This document shows positions 1 to 36,344 of a DNA stretch of 36,344 nt, piece by piece; within the stretch, counting starts at the first letter, position 1; each line of letters opens with the position of its first letter. The position numbers and the translations under genes are program-made. The notes beneath the pieces were generated by a model, which was not told where the DNA came from, did not search any database, and saw only the letters and a list, made by a program, of their open reading frames with translations. This DNA is from a virus (Duplodnaviria > Caudoviricetes): IMG/VR virus record IMGVR_UViG_3300037424_001819, positions 1 to 36,344 of that record; one strand, 5' to 3'.

Positions 1-162
1 CCCCTGATGGAGATTATGCAAGGACACATCCCGGACGAGGAGAGCCCGGACGGTGATTGCTGGGAGACATGGGAAGAACTCAGCGAGGCGGCAGCCGATG
101 AAGTTTACGGTGCCATAGCGCATAACGCTTGCGGTAACCGGACCGGGAACGCGCAGCGTTAG
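1..162 (+). CDS. 3' end of hypothetical cassette ORF (partial); stop codon lies inside attC-like site 1
   Basis: Frame +1 open from base 1 (PLMEIMQGHIPDEE...NAQR) to TAG 160-162. Confidence 0.55.
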   Translation, partial: PLMEIMQGHIPDEESPDGDCWETWEELSEAAADEVYGAIAHNACGNRTGNAQR

Positions 163-189
163 CCGGTCCGGTTGACCAAATGGTTGGAA
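120..189 (-). other. attC-type recombination site 1
   Basis: Minus strand: R'' TTCCAAC, 5 nt, L'' GGTCAACC, central hairpin, L' GGTTACC, 6 nt, R' GTTATGC; one extra base in L''. Confidence 0.85.
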
Positions 190-217
190 CGCGATTACCA
201 CAGAAGGAGGGTTTACG

Positions 218-730
218 ATGATTGACCTGCAACCGTTTTGCGCTGACCCGGAGATTTACAGACGAGCCATCAACGCCCCGTGGTCCCGTGATGGATACAC
301 ATTCGCCACCGACGGCGCCTTGCTTATCCGGGTGCCGTACCGGGCAGAAGTAGAAGACCGTGAGGGTGCCCCCCAAGTCATGGGCAATCGTATCGGCGCG
401 ATCTTCGCCAGGGAGCCTGCCGACTGGTTTGATATTCCAGAATTTCCGCCGCCTGCCTCAGACGAGTGTAAGGAGTGTGAAGGTGATGGATGGGTGTCCC
501 CCCGCACTCAGTACAACGTGTACGACGACCAAGAGTGTAAAACTTGCGACGGCAAAGGTAGAGTGCAGCAAGATAAACCGGTTGAGATTGGTGGTTTTTA
601 TTTTGCGGACAGGCTGTTGACAATATTGCGCCAGTTGCCGAACGTGAAGATCGGACCTCTCGGCCCCAATGACGCGGCCCGAGTAACATTTGACGGCGGC
701 GACGGGTTGTTGATGCCACGGCGCAAGTAG
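218..730 (+). CDS. Cassette-borne hypothetical protein with CxxCxGxG zinc-finger insert and sliding-clamp-like segments
   Basis: RBS AAGGAGG; CKECEGDG...CKTCDGKG; ATDG and terminal GLLMP motifs reminiscent of DnaN. Confidence 0.75.
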   Translation: MIDLQPFCADPEIYRRAINAPWSRDGYTFATDGALLIRVPYRAEVEDREGAPQVMGNRIGAIFAREPADWFDIPEFPPPASDECKECEGDGWVSPRTQYNVYDDQECKTCDGKGRVQQDKPVEIGGFYFADRLLTILRQLPNVKIGPLGPNDAARVTFDGGDGLLMPRRK

Positions 731-744
731 CCCGCTGCCGAGCG

Positions 745-801
745 TTCCAACGCGGAACTATCCAGCCTGCGGAGCAGGTCTGGATGAGTGACTGATTAGC
801 C
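745..801 (-). other. attC-type recombination site 2 (degenerate R'')
   Basis: Minus strand: GGCTAAT, 5 nt, L'' ACTCATCC, hairpin, L' GGATAGT, 5 nt, R' GTTGGAA. Confidence 0.7.
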
Positions 802-27208: not shown

Positions 27209-27228
27209 CATGAACCTCATAGTCATTC

Positions 27229-27259
27229 GCCACCCTAGCTCAGCTGGTAGAGCAACTGA
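27229..27259 (+). tRNA. 5' half of a tRNA (probably Thr), interrupted at an att site
   Basis: GCCACCC-TA-GCTC-AGCTGGTA-GAGC-A-ACTGA; no matching anticodon loop, T-arm or acceptor 3' strand follows. Confidence 0.7.
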
Positions 27260-27274
27260 GCATTAACCGTAACG

Positions 27275-27314
27275 AATAGGCCGCAGGCTAAATGCCCGCG
27301 GCCTATTGCTTTTT
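27275..27314. terminator. Hairpin/terminator between tRNA fragment and integrase
   Basis: AATAGGCCGCAGGC-TAAAT-GCCCGCGGCCTATT then GCTTTTT; contains integrase stop. Confidence 0.55.
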
Positions 27315-28778
27315 CGACTTGGGGCCGGGCTTTTGCGGGGGCGGCAGGTGGATGCGGCTGGTGCAGGTGTGGTCATCGCGGAGGGGGAAGCGGTAGGTGA
27401 TGAGCAGGTAGGTGGCGAAGGCTTGTATTTGCTCGATGGCGAGGGCGAGGACTTCGCGCTGTTCGGGTTCGGTGAGCGCGGTCCAGTCGCCCTCGGTGAG
27501 GGCGAGGGCGTCCCAGTCGGGAGAGCTGGCGAGATCGCGGCGGAGGTCGGCCTGCCTGGCGAGGTTTTCGGCGAGAGCGCGATCGATGCCGGTGCTCTGG
27601 GCGCGGGCGTCGGCGAAGTCGATGATGCCGTCGGCGATGGCGGCCACCAGGCGCTGCTTTTTCTGGCGCAGGGTGCGCTCCTGCTGCTGCAGCTCGGCCA
27701 GCGTGGCGGCCGGATCAAGCTGCGCCTGTCTCGCTTTCCAGTGCCGCTGCAGCTCGTCCGTGCGGCCGAGGGTGCCGAGCAGGTTGGTGACGACGCGCTC
27801 GTCGATGAGCGGCTGCTGGATCATGCGGCTCTGCGGGCAGGTTCTGCCCTCCTTGGCGGTGCAGCCGTAGTATTGTTGCCGGCTGCCATCGCCTCTGGCC
27901 CGGCCGCCCTGCCAGGCGCGGATCGAGCCGCCGCAGTAGCCGCAGACGAAGAGGCCCAGGTTGGTCAGCAGGCTGGCGTGATGTTTGCGCTGGTAGCCGC
28001 TGACCTTGCTGATGCGCCCGGCGCGGATGCGGTCGGCCTGGTCGGCATCGAGCACGGCGGGCCACTGGCCGGGGATCGTCTCGCCGGTCGCCGGGTCGAT
28101 GCGCAGGCCCTGATAAAACAGCAATCGGTCGTCGGCGATGGCGCGGCGCACGGCGATGTGCGCAAGGCCCGTGCGGTCGGCGACCTGCCGGGCGCTCAGG
28201 CTTTCTGCGAGCTGCAGCAGGCGGCGGAAGGCGCCGAGTTGCTCGGGGTCGATGACCAGGTTGCCCTGGCCGCGATCGTAGCGGTAGGGGATGGGCGGGT
28301 TGCCTGATAAATATTTGCCGGCGCGGAAGGCCTGCGCCCTGCCCTCCTTCATGCGGGCCTGCAGCACGCGCATCTCGACGCTGGAGAAGCCGCCCTCCAT
28401 CAGCAGCAGCATCCAGTCGGAGTGCTGGGCGGGGTCGAGGATGCGGGAGGGAGTGGCGAGCTTGACGCGGCGCTCGCTGCAGAGGTGCAGCCAGGCGACG
28501 TAATCCTGCAGCGAGTCGTCGCGGCTGAGACGGGAGAGCTCGATGCAGAGGATGACGTCTATGCGTCCGGCGCGGATGTCGGCTTCGAGGCGGCCGCGCT
28601 CGCGCAGATCCTCGGCCTTGCCCCGGGCGGCGCTGGCGTGGCCGTCGTCATAAATTAATGGCTCCCAGCCCTGCGCCCGGGCGTGGGCGGGGAGCTGCTC
28701 GCGCTGGACGGTGAGGCGGTGGGAGGGTTTGCCCGCCTCTTCGCGGGATTTGCGGATGTAGATGGCGCAGCGGGTCAT
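27303..28778 (-). CDS. Large serine recombinase (integrase)
   Basis: AIYIRKS catalytic Ser, ELSRLSRD, recombinase domain, CGYCG...YYGC zinc ribbon, coiled coil; start set at MTRCAIY. Confidence 0.93.
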   Translation of the reverse strand: MTRCAIYIRKSREEAGKPSHRLTVQREQLPAHARAQGWEPLIYDDGHASAARGKAEDLRERGRLEADIRAGRIDVILCIELSRLSRDDSLQDYVAWLHLCSERRVKLATPSRILDPAQHSDWMLLLMEGGFSSVEMRVLQARMKEGRAQAFRAGKYLSGNPPIPYRYDRGQGNLVIDPEQLGAFRRLLQLAESLSARQVADRTGLAHIAVRRAIADDRLLFYQGLRIDPATGETIPGQWPAVLDADQADRIRAGRISKVSGYQRKHHASLLTNLGLFVCGYCGGSIRAWQGGRARGDGSRQQYYGCTAKEGRTCPQSRMIQQPLIDERVVTNLLGTLGRTDELQRHWKARQAQLDPAATLAELQQQERTLRQKKQRLVAAIADGIIDFADARAQSTGIDRALAENLARQADLRRDLASSPDWDALALTEGDWTALTEPEQREVLALAIEQIQAFATYLLITYRFPLRDDHTCTSRIHLPPPQKPGPKSKKQ

Positions 28779-28797
28779 AGGGGTGCCGGCGAAGGGT

Positions 28798-29112
28798 CTA
28801 GTTGCGGACGTAGGCCCTTTCGAGTGGGTATTGGGTGCGGCCGAATTCCACCCACACCGTTTGCGGTTTTTTGTCCAGCCTGATTTTTTCAGCGCCGCCA
28901 GCGCATACTGTTTCCCCTCTGGCACTGACCGCACAAATATTGTTGGTCCAGACGTTCATGATGCCGAACTTCGATGTGTTCTGCAGGGTAAGCCGGGCTT
29001 CGTTGTGTCCCCTGGCCGAGCGGAAAAACTCGGTATTGGTGACGCGGACATCGGCGGCAATTGCGGACAGAGGCAATGCTGCAAGAGCTACGAAAAGAAC
29101 TAGTTTCATCAT
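28798..29112 (-). CDS. Secreted hypothetical protein
   Basis: Signal peptide MKLVLFVALAALPLSAIA; RBS AAGGAG. Confidence 0.7.
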   Translation of the reverse strand: MMKLVLFVALAALPLSAIAADVRVTNTEFFRSARGHNEARLTLQNTSKFGIMNVWTNNICAVSARGETVCAGGAEKIRLDKKPQTVWVEFGRTQYPLERAYVRN

Positions 29113-30957: not shown

Positions 30958-31010
30958 AAATTTTTACCCGAAAGTGCACCGGCAATCACAGACAACAGAT
31001 GTCCCGGTGA

Positions 31011-31445
31011 TTGCCGGTGCAGGAGAAAGCAGCGATGGCCCAGGGCAGCCTCCCCTTTGCGACGACAATACAGGAGATCAGCGACGCCGAAATCATGCGG
31101 CGTTGCAAGTCTCAGCGGGATGCTCTGCGGGTCTGCGTCGAACTCTCTGGATTGGCCCCGAAGGATGTGGCGTATCAATTGGAAATCGACCCGGCGCACT
31201 TCTCCCGCATGATTTCGGGCGGCGAGGATCGGCGACATTTCCCGCCCGACCTGGGCGACAAGCTGATGGATATCTGCGGCAACGAGGTGCCATTGCGTTA
31301 TGCCGCCCTCTCCAGAGGCTACGGATTGCACAAGCTGAAGTCCCGCCTGGAAGAGGAAAACGAGGCACTGCAGCGCCAACTGGACGAGCAGCAGGTGAAG
31401 CTGAGGGCAATCACGGAGTTTCTCAAGGAAGTGAAGGGGGTCTAG
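31011..31445 (+). CDS. CII-like HTH regulator
   Basis: KDVAYQLEIDPAHFSRMI...LMDICGNEVPL; C-terminal coiled coil. Confidence 0.65.
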   Translation: MPVQEKAAMAQGSLPFATTIQEISDAEIMRRCKSQRDALRVCVELSGLAPKDVAYQLEIDPAHFSRMISGGEDRRHFPPDLGDKLMDICGNEVPLRYAALSRGYGLHKLKSRLEEENEALQRQLDEQQVKLRAITEFLKEVKGV

Positions 31446-32136: not shown

Positions 32137-32288
32137 GAGTAGGCCCGCAAGGGCCGGCCCGGCGGGAGGGTGCCCCCCTCCACCACCCTCCCGCCGGGTG
32201 TTGCTTGTCTGAGGGGGGATTATGGGCGCAACCCGGCCCAGTTACCCGTTTATCACGGGTTTTGATGATGTCAAGGAGGCAGGGTGAA

Positions 32289-32864: not shown

Positions 32865-33461
32865 ATGACCATGAAGTATCTCACCGAAACCGAAGAGAAG
32901 ATTTTGCGGCGCACCGTGAAGGAAATCAAGGGCCGGCGGGCGGAGCGCGACCGGGTGATCGTCGAGCTGCTGCTCGGCACCGGGCTGCGGGCGGCCGAGT
33001 TGGTGGGGCTGAACGTCGGCGACCTGCGCGGCAAGGAGAAGCTCTACGTGCGGCCGGAGATCGCCAAGGGGGGTAAGGGGCGCTTCGTGCCGGTGTCGGT
33101 CGACCTGCAGCGGCTGCTCAAGGGATTTTTCCGCGACAAGCTCGCCTGGGGCGAGAGCATTCGGGATGAGGCGCCGCTGTTCATGAGCCGCGAGAATAAC
33201 CGGCTGAGCAAGATCGCCCTGCAGAAGCTGGTCGCCCACTGGATGACCCGGGCGGGGCTGACGACGACCCTGGAGGGGCGGACGGTGGCGCTCTACGGCG
33301 TGCACAGCTGCAGGCACACCTTTGCCAAGCGGCTGCTGGAGCGCGGGGTGAAGTTGCCCACGGTGCAGAAGCTGCTCGGTCACGCCTCGCTCGCCTCGAC
33401 GGGGATCTACACGGAGGCCTCCTGGGAAGAGATGGTCGAGGCGGTGGAGGCCCGGGGATGA
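32865..33461 (+). CDS. Tyrosine recombinase, catalytic domain only (198 aa)
   Basis: TGLRAAEL, KGG, HSCRH, LGHAS, TGIY: complete R-K-H-R-H-Y set. Confidence 0.9.
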   Translation: MTMKYLTETEEKILRRTVKEIKGRRAERDRVIVELLLGTGLRAAELVGLNVGDLRGKEKLYVRPEIAKGGKGRFVPVSVDLQRLLKGFFRDKLAWGESIRDEAPLFMSRENNRLSKIALQKLVAHWMTRAGLTTTLEGRTVALYGVHSCRHTFAKRLLERGVKLPTVQKLLGHASLASTGIYTEASWEEMVEAVEARG

Positions 33462-34451: not shown

Positions 34452-34747
34452 CGGCGGCGGCGTGTTCGGTCTATTTTCACGGCAAGCTGGAGCAGGCCGA
34501 AAAGGTCTTCGCCGAGCGCTACGCGGCCACGGTCGGCCCGGCGCCGCAGCCGGCGCTGGCCTGGGCGGCGCAGGCGCAGCCGGAGCTGGCCCGGGCGTAC
34601 CGCGAGGCGCAGGCCAAGGCGGACGCTCTCTGGCTCAAAGGCGAGTGCAGCGAGGTCTTCAAGGGGGCGGTGATGGCGATGTTTCGGGCGCTGATCGAGA
34701 TCGGCCGGCTGTATGCGGCGGAGCTCGGCGGCAGGGAGGCGGCATAG
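34448..34747 (+). CDS. Hypothetical protein
   Basis: ATGA-coupled; ends REAA. Confidence 0.55.
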   Translation: MTAAACSVYFHGKLEQAEKVFAERYAATVGPAPQPALAWAAQAQPELARAYREAQAKADALWLKGECSEVFKGAVMAMFRALIEIGRLYAAELGGREAA

Positions 34748-34748
34748 T

Positions 34749-34955
34749 ATGGCCTTTGACGATACCAAATGCCCGTGCGGCGACAAGAAACCGGCCGGAA
34801 CGATGTTGTGCGAGCCGTGCGAGGCGTATCTGAGCGACCGGCGCGAGATCAGGGAGTATTTGGACACATCCCTCAACGTGGAGCTGCGGCAACACGCGGC
34901 GGTTACGCTGCTGACGCTGGCCAGAGGTCGCAAGCTTGCAAGGAGAGGGGTCTGA
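34749..34955 (+). CDS. Small zinc-finger protein
   Basis: CPCG...CEPC. Confidence 0.55.
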   Translation: MAFDDTKCPCGDKKPAGTMLCEPCEAYLSDRREIREYLDTSLNVELRQHAAVTLLTLARGRKLARRGV

Positions 34956-34957
34956 GT

Positions 34958-35116
34958 ATGGCGTGGAAGAAGGCGGCAAATCCCCGGCAGGTGGTCGTCT
35001 CGGCCCGGCTGACCCGGGAAGAGAAGCGGGCGCTGGACGCCTACGCAAAGAAACGGGGAGTGGCTCTCTCGGAGATCGTCCGCGAGCGGCTGCTCGGCAC
35101 GATGGTGGGGGCGTGA
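34958..35116 (+). CDS. Ribbon-helix-helix (CopG-like) protein
   Basis: VVSARLTREEKRALDAYAKKRGVALSEIVRE. Confidence 0.7.
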   Translation: MAWKKAANPRQVVVSARLTREEKRALDAYAKKRGVALSEIVRERLLGTMVGA

Positions 35117-35382
35117 TGGAATTAACGGTTTTCACCTGGTTGCTGGTTGCGGCCGCCCTTATCGGCACGTGGCTGAACGTTAAACAAGACCGGCGCTGCT
35201 TCTATATCTGGGCGGTGACGAACGCGGGCCTCTGCGGGGTCAACGCCATCTCCGGACAATGGGCGCAGGCTCTTCTCTTCGCGGTCTATTTCGCCCTCGC
35301 CCTGGTGGGCGTGCGCCAGTGGCAGAGGCGGCAGCAGGCAGGGGTGCGGGTGGTGATCAGGAAGGACGGCCGTAAGGTTTAA
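35116..35382 (+). CDS. Half-size PnuC-like membrane protein
   Basis: LIGTWLN...FYIWAVTN...GVRQW; three TM helices. Confidence 0.6.
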   Translation: MELTVFTWLLVAAALIGTWLNVKQDRRCFYIWAVTNAGLCGVNAISGQWAQALLFAVYFALALVGVRQWQRRQQAGVRVVIRKDGRKV

Positions 35383-35442
35383 CCAGCCGAGGGGATCGAG
35401 GCGAGACTCGCGGCATCGAGGCAGAGAAAGAATGGAGGCATT

Positions 35443-35703
35443 ATGAAGAACGGGACGAAAAACAAGCTGCTGGATCTGAACAATCACCTTTTTGCCCAGC
35501 TGGAGCGGCTCGGCGAGGAGGACACGACGGGCGAGAAGCTCCAGGAGGAGATCGAGAGATCCCGGGCGGTCGGCGGGATCGCCCGCAACATCATCGACAA
35601 TGCCCGGCTGGCCCTCGATGCGCAGAAGGCCCTGGGCGATACCGTGCGCACCCTGCCGTTGATGATCGCCGAGCTAAAGGGCCGGAGCGGCGAAGCCGCG
35701 TAG
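35443..35703 (+). CDS. Phage hypothetical protein; C-terminus runs into attC-like site 3
   Basis: KNKLLDLNNHLFAQLERL...EIERSRAV; GGAGG RBS. Confidence 0.75.
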   Translation: MKNGTKNKLLDLNNHLFAQLERLGEEDTTGEKLQEEIERSRAVGGIARNIIDNARLALDAQKALGDTVRTLPLMIAELKGRSGEAA

Positions 35704-35728
35704 GTCCGCTTTGAGCGTTGTGTTCTGC
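35661..35728 (-). other. attC-type recombination site 3 (R' core is GAT)
   Basis: Minus strand: R'' GCAGAAC, 5 nt, L'' GCTCAAAG, hairpin, L' CTTTAGC, 5 nt, R' GATCATC. Confidence 0.75.
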
Positions 35729-35758
35729 GGCAAGTGGTAACTACGGGAGAAACGAACG

Positions 35759-36169
35759 ATGAAAGCATTGACGATTTGCCAGCCATACGCGGCCCTGATT
35801 GTGCGCGGCGACAAGCTGGTTGAGAACCGCGAGTGGCCGACGAATTACCGGGGGCGGCTGTTGATACACGCTGGCAAAAGCCGCCAATGGCTCGACGACG
35901 AAGACGAGCAGGAGTTTGCGGATCGCGGCGACCCGCTGGTGTTCGGTGCCGTGGTCGGAGAGGCTCGGCTGGCCGACGTGCTGCATATCGACCGCATTCG
36001 GCGCGGCGAGTACGACGCGAAGTATCCGTGGTTGAAGGACCATGCGCACACGAACGGCACGTGGTGCTGGGTGCTGGCCGACGTGCAGCGCTACGCGGCT
36101 CCGCTGACGTGGAAGGGTGCCCAAGGGCTGTGGGAGTTCCCCGACGCGGACTTGCCGCAGAACGACTGA
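35759..36169 (+). CDS. Cassette-borne ASCH domain protein
   Basis: MKALTICQPYAALIVRGDKLVENREW.TNYRGRLLIHAGK...KGAQGLW. Confidence 0.92.
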   Translation: MKALTICQPYAALIVRGDKLVENREWPTNYRGRLLIHAGKSRQWLDDEDEQEFADRGDPLVFGAVVGEARLADVLHIDRIRRGEYDAKYPWLKDHAHTNGTWCWVLADVQRYAAPLTWKGAQGLWEFPDADLPQND

Positions 36170-36220
36170 GGTCAAGGGCTCGGCGCTTTTGCCGAGTCCG
36201 CTTGCAGCGCCGGGTTCTGG
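36157..36220 (-). other. attC-type recombination site 4
   Basis: Minus strand: R'' CCAGAAC, 5 nt, L'' GCTGCAAG, hairpin, L' CTTGACC, 6 nt, R' GTTCTGC. Confidence 0.8.
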
Positions 36221-36236
36221 CGCGGGAGGTAGACAA

Positions 36237-36344
36237 GTGAAAATTGAGATCGAATTCGACAGCACCTACAAGGCGAAAGTGACGATTGATGGCCGTGAAA
36301 TGACCTATGGATACAAGAACGGCGGGTTTTCCTACTTCGAGGGA
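36237..36344 (+). CDS. 5' part of next cassette ORF (partial)
   Basis: GGAGGT RBS + GTG; MKIEIEFDSTYKAKVTIDG open to window end. Confidence 0.6.
   Translation, partial: MKIEIEFDSTYKAKVTIDGREMTYGYKNGGFSYFEG

What the first reader, a model, noticed from the sequence alone, without database searches (positions are those of the whole stretch)
35661..36344. Second inverted-cassette array: ASCH cassette with 14-bp perfectly complementary ends
Seen: sites 35661-35728 and 36157-36220 share the minus-strand attC geometry. The ASCH gene between them is bounded by GTTCTGCGGCAAGT (35722-35735) and its exact reverse complement ACTTGCCGCAGAAC (36150-36163). A further RBS+ORF starts right after site 4. The four sites differ in sequence but conserve structure, as attC sites do. 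Three ORFs (1-162, 35443-35703, ASCH) read into the site and stop inside it, so the sites are partly coding. Inference: an independent instance of the same system, making chance hairpins unlikely.
Basis: partly seen in the sequence, partly recalled or inferred. Interest (0 to 1): 0.88.

Follow-up and report, generated by a model that had tools for sequence, protein, structure and literature searches.

The report
Backwards integron cassettes swapped between phages
This phage carries one row (not two) of three gene cassettes bounded by integron-type DNA hairpins, with the genes facing the opposite way to ordinary bacterial cassettes, and the comparable part of one cassette also stands almost letter for letter in a second phage that encodes the integron enzyme, which likely moves them.

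Summary
The sites are real integron attC sites whose recombinogenic strand is the genes' coding strand, the reverse of ordinary cassettes.

It is not a second, independent array. A 371-nt contig of run X1 bridges the window's end to its start, so four sites form one array of three cassettes.

Mobility has direct traces. Cassette 2 recurs in phage L316, which encodes a true IntI, and the two diverge exactly at the predicted AA|C crossover. Relatives show the empty left target, a G|AT site. L003 and L004 hold one cassette in different order.

With a matched motif, viral cassettes were 108 antisense, 6 sense, 30 unclear; prokaryotic genomes 26, 88, 33. The window has no IntI; supply in trans is inferred.

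Phage attC clusters are published (PMC9892861). My ten searches found no paper on the inverted polarity, but this scan has noted it before in at least 15 other genomes. Verdict: new variant of a known kind, unusually well evidenced here.

The parts
35443..35703 (+). Backbone phage gene (phrog_2044-like) whose 3' end was the insertion target; its last 11 residues are now coded by the attC site
   Evidence: phrog_2044 E 2e-27. 66 of the 72 homologues with a matching C-terminal motif (82 examined) continue with Gly; no fetched protein has the window's tail. An X2 contig with 2 mismatches leaves the window after 35668 with the allele that codes the homologues' ending.
35661..35728 (-). attC site 3 (hairpin body belongs to the ASCH cassette); its R' is the secondary target G|AT, crossover between 35666 and 35667
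   Evidence: R'' GCAGAAC, 5-nt spacer, 8-nt L'' with extra base, L box 7 of 7 pairs. GWT is the consensus of IntI genome insertions (bioRxiv 10.1101/2022.09.11.507474, passages).
35667..36162 (+). Cassette 1 (496 bp): attC body, RBS, ASCH gene
   Evidence: The computed excised-circle site folds with a continuous outer stem, -29.0 kcal/mol, z -6.0 against 200 shuffles. Homologous cassettes with co-varying ends in L001-L004.
35722..35735 (+). Left arm of the 14-bp terminal inverted repeat (R'' box plus 7 bp)
35759..36169 (+). ASCH-domain gene, 136 aa; reads across the crossover with AAC as an Asn codon and takes its stop from site 4
   Evidence: PF04266 E 3e-6; ASC-1 chains in the PDB E 3e-6. 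15 of the 19 closest homologues have Asn at this position followed by unrelated tails, against 6 of 55 distant ones.
36150..36163 (+). Right arm of the 14-bp inverted repeat (R' box of site 4 plus 7 bp); crossover AA|C between 36162 and 36163
   Evidence: X1 contigs branch at 36161
36157..36220 (-). attC site 4 (body belongs to cassette 2); L box 6 of 7 pairs, first extrahelical base C instead of the usual G on the bottom strand
   Evidence: near-identical site bodies precede other genes in L036-L042, L316 and L452
36163..36344 (+). Cassette 2, first part: attC body, RBS, gene start at 36237 (continues through 60 nt missing from the window into 1-125; about 368 bp in all)
   Evidence: bridging contig
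1..125 (+). Cassette 2, last part; shared with phage L316 (121 identical bases, one extra C, 6 more identical bases, then divergence after TAAC)
120..189 (-). attC site 1, fully canonical (L box 7 of 7)
   Evidence: score 13.25
126..750 (+). Cassette 3 (625 bp) with gene 218-730 (170 aa, CXXCXGXG zinc-finger-like motif, function unknown)
   Evidence: circle site z -7.3; the single-sequence fold was uninformative
745..801 (-). attC site 2 with a decayed R'' (AAT); body of a truncated fourth cassette, 25 bp before backbone gene 826-1650; no attI or intI follows
   Evidence: read from the sequence; aligned; no IntI in G000
32865..33461 (+). 198-aa catalytic-domain-only tyrosine recombinase in the early operon; not an integron integrase; link to the array not shown
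   Evidence: TIGR02249 58.6 bits against cut-off 265; lacks the N-terminal domain and most of the IntI-specific insertion
27228..27259 (+). Likely attP: 32 bp identical to the 5' part of the tRNA-Thr(CGT) at the end of prophage record G041, beside the large serine integrase (27303-28934, -)

Best explanation
The window's end and start hold one array of four attC sites and three cassettes whose genes lie on the recombinogenic strand, and these cassettes are likely cut out and inserted by an integron integrase supplied from outside this genome. SHOWN: attC anatomy and its polarity; one continuous array in a genome whose ends are bridged; the unit that moves is 'hairpin body plus the gene behind it', from AA|C to AA|C; the same cassette in a second phage that has IntI; an empty left target; reordering in related arrays; no IntI in this genome. 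INFERRED: the array began by insertion at a G|AT secondary site in the 3' end of gene 35443, in a slot where relative L389 has another gene; IntI comes from a co-resident prophage such as L316 or from the host; the inversion exists because cassettes are read by the phage early operon, which runs through the array towards attI and intI, so cassette genes must be co-directional with intI instead of facing away from it under Pc. Because genes either stop at the TAA of the R box or cross the joint with AAC in frame and pick up a short tail from the next hairpin, swapping a cassette would leave the upstream gene whole. The cargo is phage accessory genes; a role of the ASCH protein on modified bases is a guess from its family.
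For: Polarity: extrahelical bases lie on the arm opposite the AAC on the plus strand, and the plus strand is G-rich in all 4 sites, the marks of the bottom strand in PMC5027507 (passages). Mobile unit: the X1 contig of depth 22.4 runs from AAC 36161 to AAC 126 between flanks of 13.5 and 15.8, and another contig enters at 36161 with different upstream letters. L316 shares 1-126 and diverges right after TAAC; it has three more cassettes, an attI-like joint and IntI at 401 bits. L003 2163-2609 equals L004 1046-1492 (447 bp, 100%) at another place in the array, starting at AAC. Empty target. Survey: viral 132 antisense, 4 sense, 15 unclear against 38, 52, 58 in genomes by the first measure; 108, 6, 30 against 26, 88, 33 by the second; three antisense 'genome' loci that I checked lie beside phage genes. 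Frame rule: of 144 viral intervals 39 cross the joint, all 39 with AAC in frame; 33 stop at the R-box TAA, 33 stop earlier, 39 had no clear ORF. Viral IntI loci: 98 of 98 upstream sites on the strand opposite intI, cassette genes 34 antisense, 11 sense, 10 unclear. L032, a relative of this phage's early region, has IntI (362 bits) at the downstream end of such an array.
Against: No recombination was assayed. No IntI in this genome, and only 2 of 35 virus records searched with the IntI family passed its cut-off (many are fragments). Sites 3 and 2 have imperfect R boxes and site 4 an unusual extrahelical base, so not every cassette need still be mobile. Because cassette 2 is a repeat shared by two phages, the assembly graph also allows the window's end to join L316's start; depths do not decide this, and the circular reading rests on the bridge plus gene order in L389 and L006 and the internal attP. 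Orientation calls are heuristic ORF calls, the second measure was devised after seeing the first, the two motif patterns differed by two bases, and full flanks were fetched for only 80 loci of each set. Not all phage arrays are inverted: both sites called in the TJE1 cassette region are sense. The reason for the inversion is untested.
Confidence: 0.85

Rival explanations
1. The sites are integron-derived fossils. Cassettes now move between phages by homologous or illegitimate recombination at similar hairpins, without an integrase.
For: No IntI in the genome; decayed ends at sites 3 and 2; ASCH homologues in L005 and L006 keep only remnants of their sites.
Against: Breakpoints fall at the AAC triplet, where the partners share only 3-7 bases, in window versus L316, L003 versus L004 and the X1 graph. 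The shared cassette differs by one base in 127.
Confidence: 0.06
2. The phage's own 198-aa tyrosine recombinase, not IntI, shuffles the cassettes, making this a self-contained system with a non-IntI enzyme.
For: The gene lies in the same early operon, 2.2 kb upstream. Earlier scan notes e1-5971338 and e1-6146849 describe small recombinases beside inverted arrays in other phages (unchecked).
Against: It lacks the IntI insertion. L033 has it at 83% identity with no credible attC site in 20.6 kb, and L032 has it at 75% together with a separate true IntI beside its array. Only 2 relatives were found, so co-occurrence is poorly sampled.
Confidence: 0.05
3. These are ordinary bacterial cassettes that were inserted upside down by rare top-strand recombination.
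For: Top-strand recombination and inverted insertion are described (PMC5027507, passages) and would also put the hairpin body in front of the gene.
Against: That route would leave the 8-nt L'' with its extra base on the arm next to the AAC on the gene's strand; here it is on the far arm in all 4 sites. The cargo is phage-type, and the site-4 family pattern hit 0 stretches in the prokaryotic genome collection against 5 viral stretches from 4 contigs.
Confidence: 0.03

Closest known systems
Phage-borne CALINs (Qi et al. 2023, PMC9892861; read: main text parts 1-4 of 7 and part 1 of 2 of the supplement)
   Same: Cluster of attC sites with one-gene cassettes in a phage, no integrase beside it; 5 of 6 such sites recombined with IntI1 in that paper.
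   Different: The paper does not describe genes antisense to attC as a rule. Its TJE1 array is sense by my check. One site in MW202573 and P12002L_attC1 are antisense, unremarked in the text I read. It shows no cassette shared between phages, no empty target and no in-frame read-through.
CALIN and complete integron (Cury et al. 2016, PMC4889954; passages)
   Same: At least two attC sites without nearby intI; origin by insertion at secondary sites or by loss of intI; mobilisation in trans proposed.
   Different: There cassettes are most often transcribed opposite to intI from Pc. Here, and in 21 of the 26 viral IntI loci with a call, they run with intI and with the phage operon.
attC site and strand selectivity (Nivina et al. 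2016, PMC5027507; passages)
   Same: AAC triplet, R and L boxes, 5-6-nt spacers, extrahelical bases opposite the AAC, G-rich bottom strand, length within 57-141 bp.
   Different: The bottom strand is the coding strand; hairpin arms code protein tails and stops.
attG / GWT secondary insertion sites (bioRxiv 10.1101/2022.09.11.507474; passages)
   Same: The left end of the array is a G|AT joint inside a gene.
   Different: Here the target is a phage gene end and the gene survives with a new tail.

Membership tests
attC site | R''-spacer-L''...L'-spacer-R' with 5-6-nt spacers and length 57-141 bp | tested here: met
   57-70 bp in all 4 sites; L box 7/7, 6/7, 7/7 for sites 3, 4, 1 and 7/7 for site 2 by eye
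attC site | AAC triplet in R' and GTT in R'' of the bottom strand | tested here: inconclusive
   Met in sites 4 and 1; site 3 has the G|AT target in the array (restored in the computed circle); site 2 has ATT in R''
attC site | Extrahelical bases on the arm opposite the AAC; first one usually G | tested here: met
   Position met on the plus strand in 4 of 4; G in sites 3, 1 and 2, C in site 4
attC site | Recombined as a folded single strand by IntI | not testable with these tools
   Only indirect: breakpoints at AA|C
attC site | Hit by the IntegronFinder or HattCI model | not testable with these tools
   Not on hand; Rfam gave no relevant family. My own model R1 was built with the window's sites, so its window hits are circular; it also found sites in L450, L452, L032 and TJE1 that were not in training
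CALIN | Two or more attC sites, same strand, within 4 kb | tested here: met
   4 sites within about 1.5 kb on the closed genome
CALIN | No intI nearby | tested here: met
   TIGR02249 best 35 bits in G000
Complete integron | IntI and attI beside the array | tested here: not met
   met in L316, L032 and L227 (attI read by eye)
Canonical gene cassette | ORF on the attC top strand, followed by its own attC, expressed from Pc at attI | tested here: not met
   All 3 ORFs are on the bottom strand and preceded by their own hairpin body
Integron integrase (for ORF 32865-33461) | IntI-specific insertion and full length of about 320 aa | tested here: not met
   198 aa, 58.6 bits against 265, insertion largely absent

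The most novel reading that the evidence does not exclude
Phages run their own branch of the integron system: a pool of reverse-built, translation-proof cassettes that is created in phages, exchanged among co-resident prophages by phage-encoded IntI, and read by the early operon. Cassette 2 and a cassette of L452 share the hairpin family, the ribosome-binding leader and a near-identical 10-bp terminal repeat but carry unrelated genes, so new genes may be captured into a reusable shell, a direct handle on how cassettes are made.
Probability: 0.45. Interest if true: 0.88.

Novelty: new variant of a known kind. Interest (0 to 1): 0.68.

Why it matters
Integrons are treated as bacterial devices whose strand selectivity exists to point genes away from intI under Pc. 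A large phage cassette pool with the opposite polarity would mean the same chemistry serves phages as a precise, gene-sized exchange system for accessory genes, a mechanism for phage mosaicism that needs no homology. Such cassettes would be silent from Pc if they entered a host attI. The origin of cassettes is an open question (PMC4889954 calls the mechanism unknown); same-shell, different-cargo pairs and an empty target make it testable. This locus supplies a ready test set: an integrase-less array, a partner phage with IntI and attI, a shared cassette and an empty allele.

Tried and rejected
Plus-strand (ordinary) reading of the sites: my first guess from the R boxes alone; rejected by spacer lengths, extrahelical-base position and breakpoints.

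In-frame junction as proof of a direct end-to-start join: the frame is open, but 60 nt are missing, so the seamless read is a coincidence of a multiple of three.

Free-energy folding of sites 3 and 4 as they stand gave alternative folds, not the attC fold; the computed circle forms of cassettes 1 and 3 fold as expected.

Rfam: one chance hit at E 0.69. Promoter scan 34500-36344: 0 sites; terminators at chance level.

Protein search with 1-159 found only a 39-aa self fragment. Fold of gene 218-730 without an alignment: pLDDT 36, not used.

ASCH loci: 21 of the 26 (L006-L026) have no called attC; the detector found sites only in L001-L005, the closest ones. 8 of 80 loci of gene-35443 homologues had a called site.

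IntI tree (68 sequences, only 6 bacterial, FastTree): antisense-associated viral IntIs fall in several clades and L336 nests among bacterial ones; too thin to claim a phage-only clade.

No RNA holder listed; no statement on expression.

Literature: 10 searches in the PMC open-access and bioRxiv library; none returned a paper describing antisense cassettes as a phage rule. Subscription papers, figures and the Dryad annotation file of PMC9892861 were not visible and could bear on this.

Full report
CONTEXT. The window is a whole virus record of 36,344 bases, rated 94% complete. It encodes a Mor-like late activator, lysis, Mu-like head and tail genes, a DNA methylase, a large serine integrase, a repressor and an early operon that runs on the plus strand to the end of the record. 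A 32-bp stretch beside the integrase (27228-27259) is identical to the 5' part of a tRNA-Thr(CGT) that ends prophage record G041, next to a cytochrome c7-like gene (106 bits, under the cut-off of 120). I infer an attP and a Geobacter- or Desulfuromonas-like host shared by the two phages.

OBSERVATION. A two-strand detector built on published attC anatomy called 120-189 and 36157-36220, and 35661-35728 when R' was relaxed to GNT, all with the top strand on minus; 10 shuffles gave no hit at score 11.5. Site 745-801 fits by eye with one changed base in R''. The detector's polarity matches the experimentally favoured strand of TJE1_attC2. On the plus strand the extra bases sit on the arm opposite the AAC and G exceeds C in all four sites (26/17, 24/18, 24/18, 17/14), both marks of the recombinogenic bottom strand (PMC5027507). 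All genes of the array are on plus. The 14-bp repeat is exact. It closes the outer stem of the excised cassette (z -6.0). Long terminal complementarity is common in cassettes generally (10 bp or more in 60 of 139 prokaryotic and 47 of 134 viral cases), so it marks a real cassette but is not special to this one.

ONE ARRAY, NOT TWO. In run X1, which may be the source of the window, a contig of 371 nt and depth 22.4 lies on 36161-36344 and a contig of the same length and depth on 1-121, leaving 60 letters between. It spans exactly AAC to AAC, that is cassette 2. Relatives show the same backbone order across the junction: L389 has the 35443 homologue, one other gene, then the 826 homologue; L006 has ASCH directly before the 826 homologue. 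The array therefore reads: gene 35443, site 3, ASCH, site 4, cassette-2 gene, site 1, gene 218-730, site 2, gene 826. The X1 contigs and L316 have an extra C behind 120, which stops the cassette-2 gene at the R-box TAA. Caveat: since cassette 2 is a repeat shared by two phages, the graph also permits the window's end to continue into L316; depths (13.5, 15.8, 13.7) do not decide.

MOBILITY. (1) L316 begins with the same 121 bases, the extra C, six more identical bases, and diverges right after TAAC. It continues with three other cassettes of the same polarity, an attI-like joint, and an IntI of 401 bits on the same strand as the cassette genes. Loose ends in X1 match L316's second site and show a different neighbour entering at 36161. 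(2) An X2 contig follows gene 35443 to 35668 and goes on with the ending found in its 96% homologue P0123; 66 of 72 scored homologues have Gly where the window switches to the hairpin-coded tail. The joint is G|AT, matching the GWT consensus of IntI insertions outside attI. (3) L003 and L004 carry a 447-bp cassette, 100% identical, at different places, beginning at AAC. (4) 15 of the 19 closest ASCH homologues share the Asn of the joint and then unrelated tails, as expected if each is followed by a different hairpin. Against generality: only the 5 closest of 26 ASCH loci had called sites, so the cassette form is one lineage of a widespread free-standing phage gene.

IS THE POLARITY A PHAGE RULE? 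I scanned viral contigs (100 loci) and prokaryotic genomes (126 loci) with nearly the same attC motif. By RBS-led ORF cover, unique intervals were 132 antisense, 4 sense, 15 unclear in viruses and 38, 52, 58 in genomes. By a best-ORF score devised afterwards, 108, 6, 30 and 26, 88, 33. Three antisense-majority genome loci that I checked lie beside phage lysozyme, RecT or Mu gp27; the others were not checked. Among 80 viral IntI loci (best 80 of 128), all 98 upstream sites were opposite to intI, as in ordinary integrons, but cassette genes were 34 antisense, 11 sense, 10 unclear; per locus 21, 5 and 54 without a call. L032, which shares this phage's early genes at 56-75%, and L227 show array, attI-like joint and intI in operon direction. 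Of 144 viral intervals, the 39 genes that cross the joint all do so with AAC in frame. Exceptions exist: TJE1 is sense.

MECHANISM. Most likely an IntI from a co-resident prophage or the host cleaves the folded plus strand at AA|C, releasing circles of hairpin plus gene and inserting them at attI, at another attC or at a GWT site. Excision chemistry rests on established integron work; its action here is inferred from breakpoints. The window's own small recombinase fails the IntI tests. The inversion is best explained by expression from the phage early operon, which enters the array from its far end; the frame rule keeps upstream genes whole after a swap. An effect of replication direction on excision (PMC5371416, passages) is an untested alternative or addition. 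This array has no attI and decayed outer sites, so it may mainly donate and reshuffle.

COMPARISON AND NOVELTY. It meets the definition of a CALIN and works like an integron cassette array; it is not a complete integron, and its cassettes are not canonical in polarity. Phage CALINs are published. In the text of PMC9892861 that I read the inversion is not described as a rule, though two of its sites are antisense by my check. Ten literature searches found no description; closed papers and figures were not visible. Earlier notes of this scan report the same layout in at least 15 other genomes; they are unchecked and I count them as leads only. What this locus adds is the shared cassette with exact breakpoints, the IntI-bearing partner, the empty target and a matched control.

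Noticed in passing
window 27228-27259 and L451 14033-14109: A large serine integrase phage carries 32 bp identical to the 5' part of tRNA-Thr(CGT), preceded by a promoter-like stretch also seen before the tRNA in G041; both phages seem to use the same tRNA.
   Followed up: partly
window 32865-33461; L032 3407-3994; L033 10001-10594: A 198-aa catalytic-only tyrosine recombinase sits in the early operon of this phage group beside a separate integrase; its target is unknown. I recognised no transposase or replication gene among the ORFs scanned despite Mu-like late genes.
   Followed up: partly
L032 9631-10797: This phage IntI has a C-terminal extension of about 45 aa absent from the other six IntIs aligned; full-length matches in L290-L292 suggest a clade feature.
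   Followed up: no
window 36161-36240 and L452 7453-7372 (-): Same hairpin family, leader, RBS and near-identical 10-bp terminal repeat around unrelated genes; L452 has two cassettes with these ends. A possible trace of cassette genesis.
   Followed up: partly
L452 7000-6420 (-) and L032 9577-9630: Similar attI-like joints before related IntIs; L452 has two of them flanking two small genes.
   Followed up: no
cassettes in L046-L271: Terminal complementarity of cassettes peaks at 12 bp in prokaryotic arrays (37 of 139) and drops sharply above it, as if the outer stem had a fixed length.
   Followed up: no
window 35411-35422: A 12-base stretch upstream of gene 35443 matches the sequence that follows the empty target in the X2 allele; chance or relic, not examined.
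   Followed up: no
L004, L005, L032, L052, L316: Recurrent cargo in inverted arrays: DNA methylases, NADAR, DUF551.
   Followed up: partly
window 30975-31022, 31087-31218, 32158-32198: Three other strong inverted repeats in the early region (arms of 14-15 bp); not attC-like by the detector.
   Followed up: no
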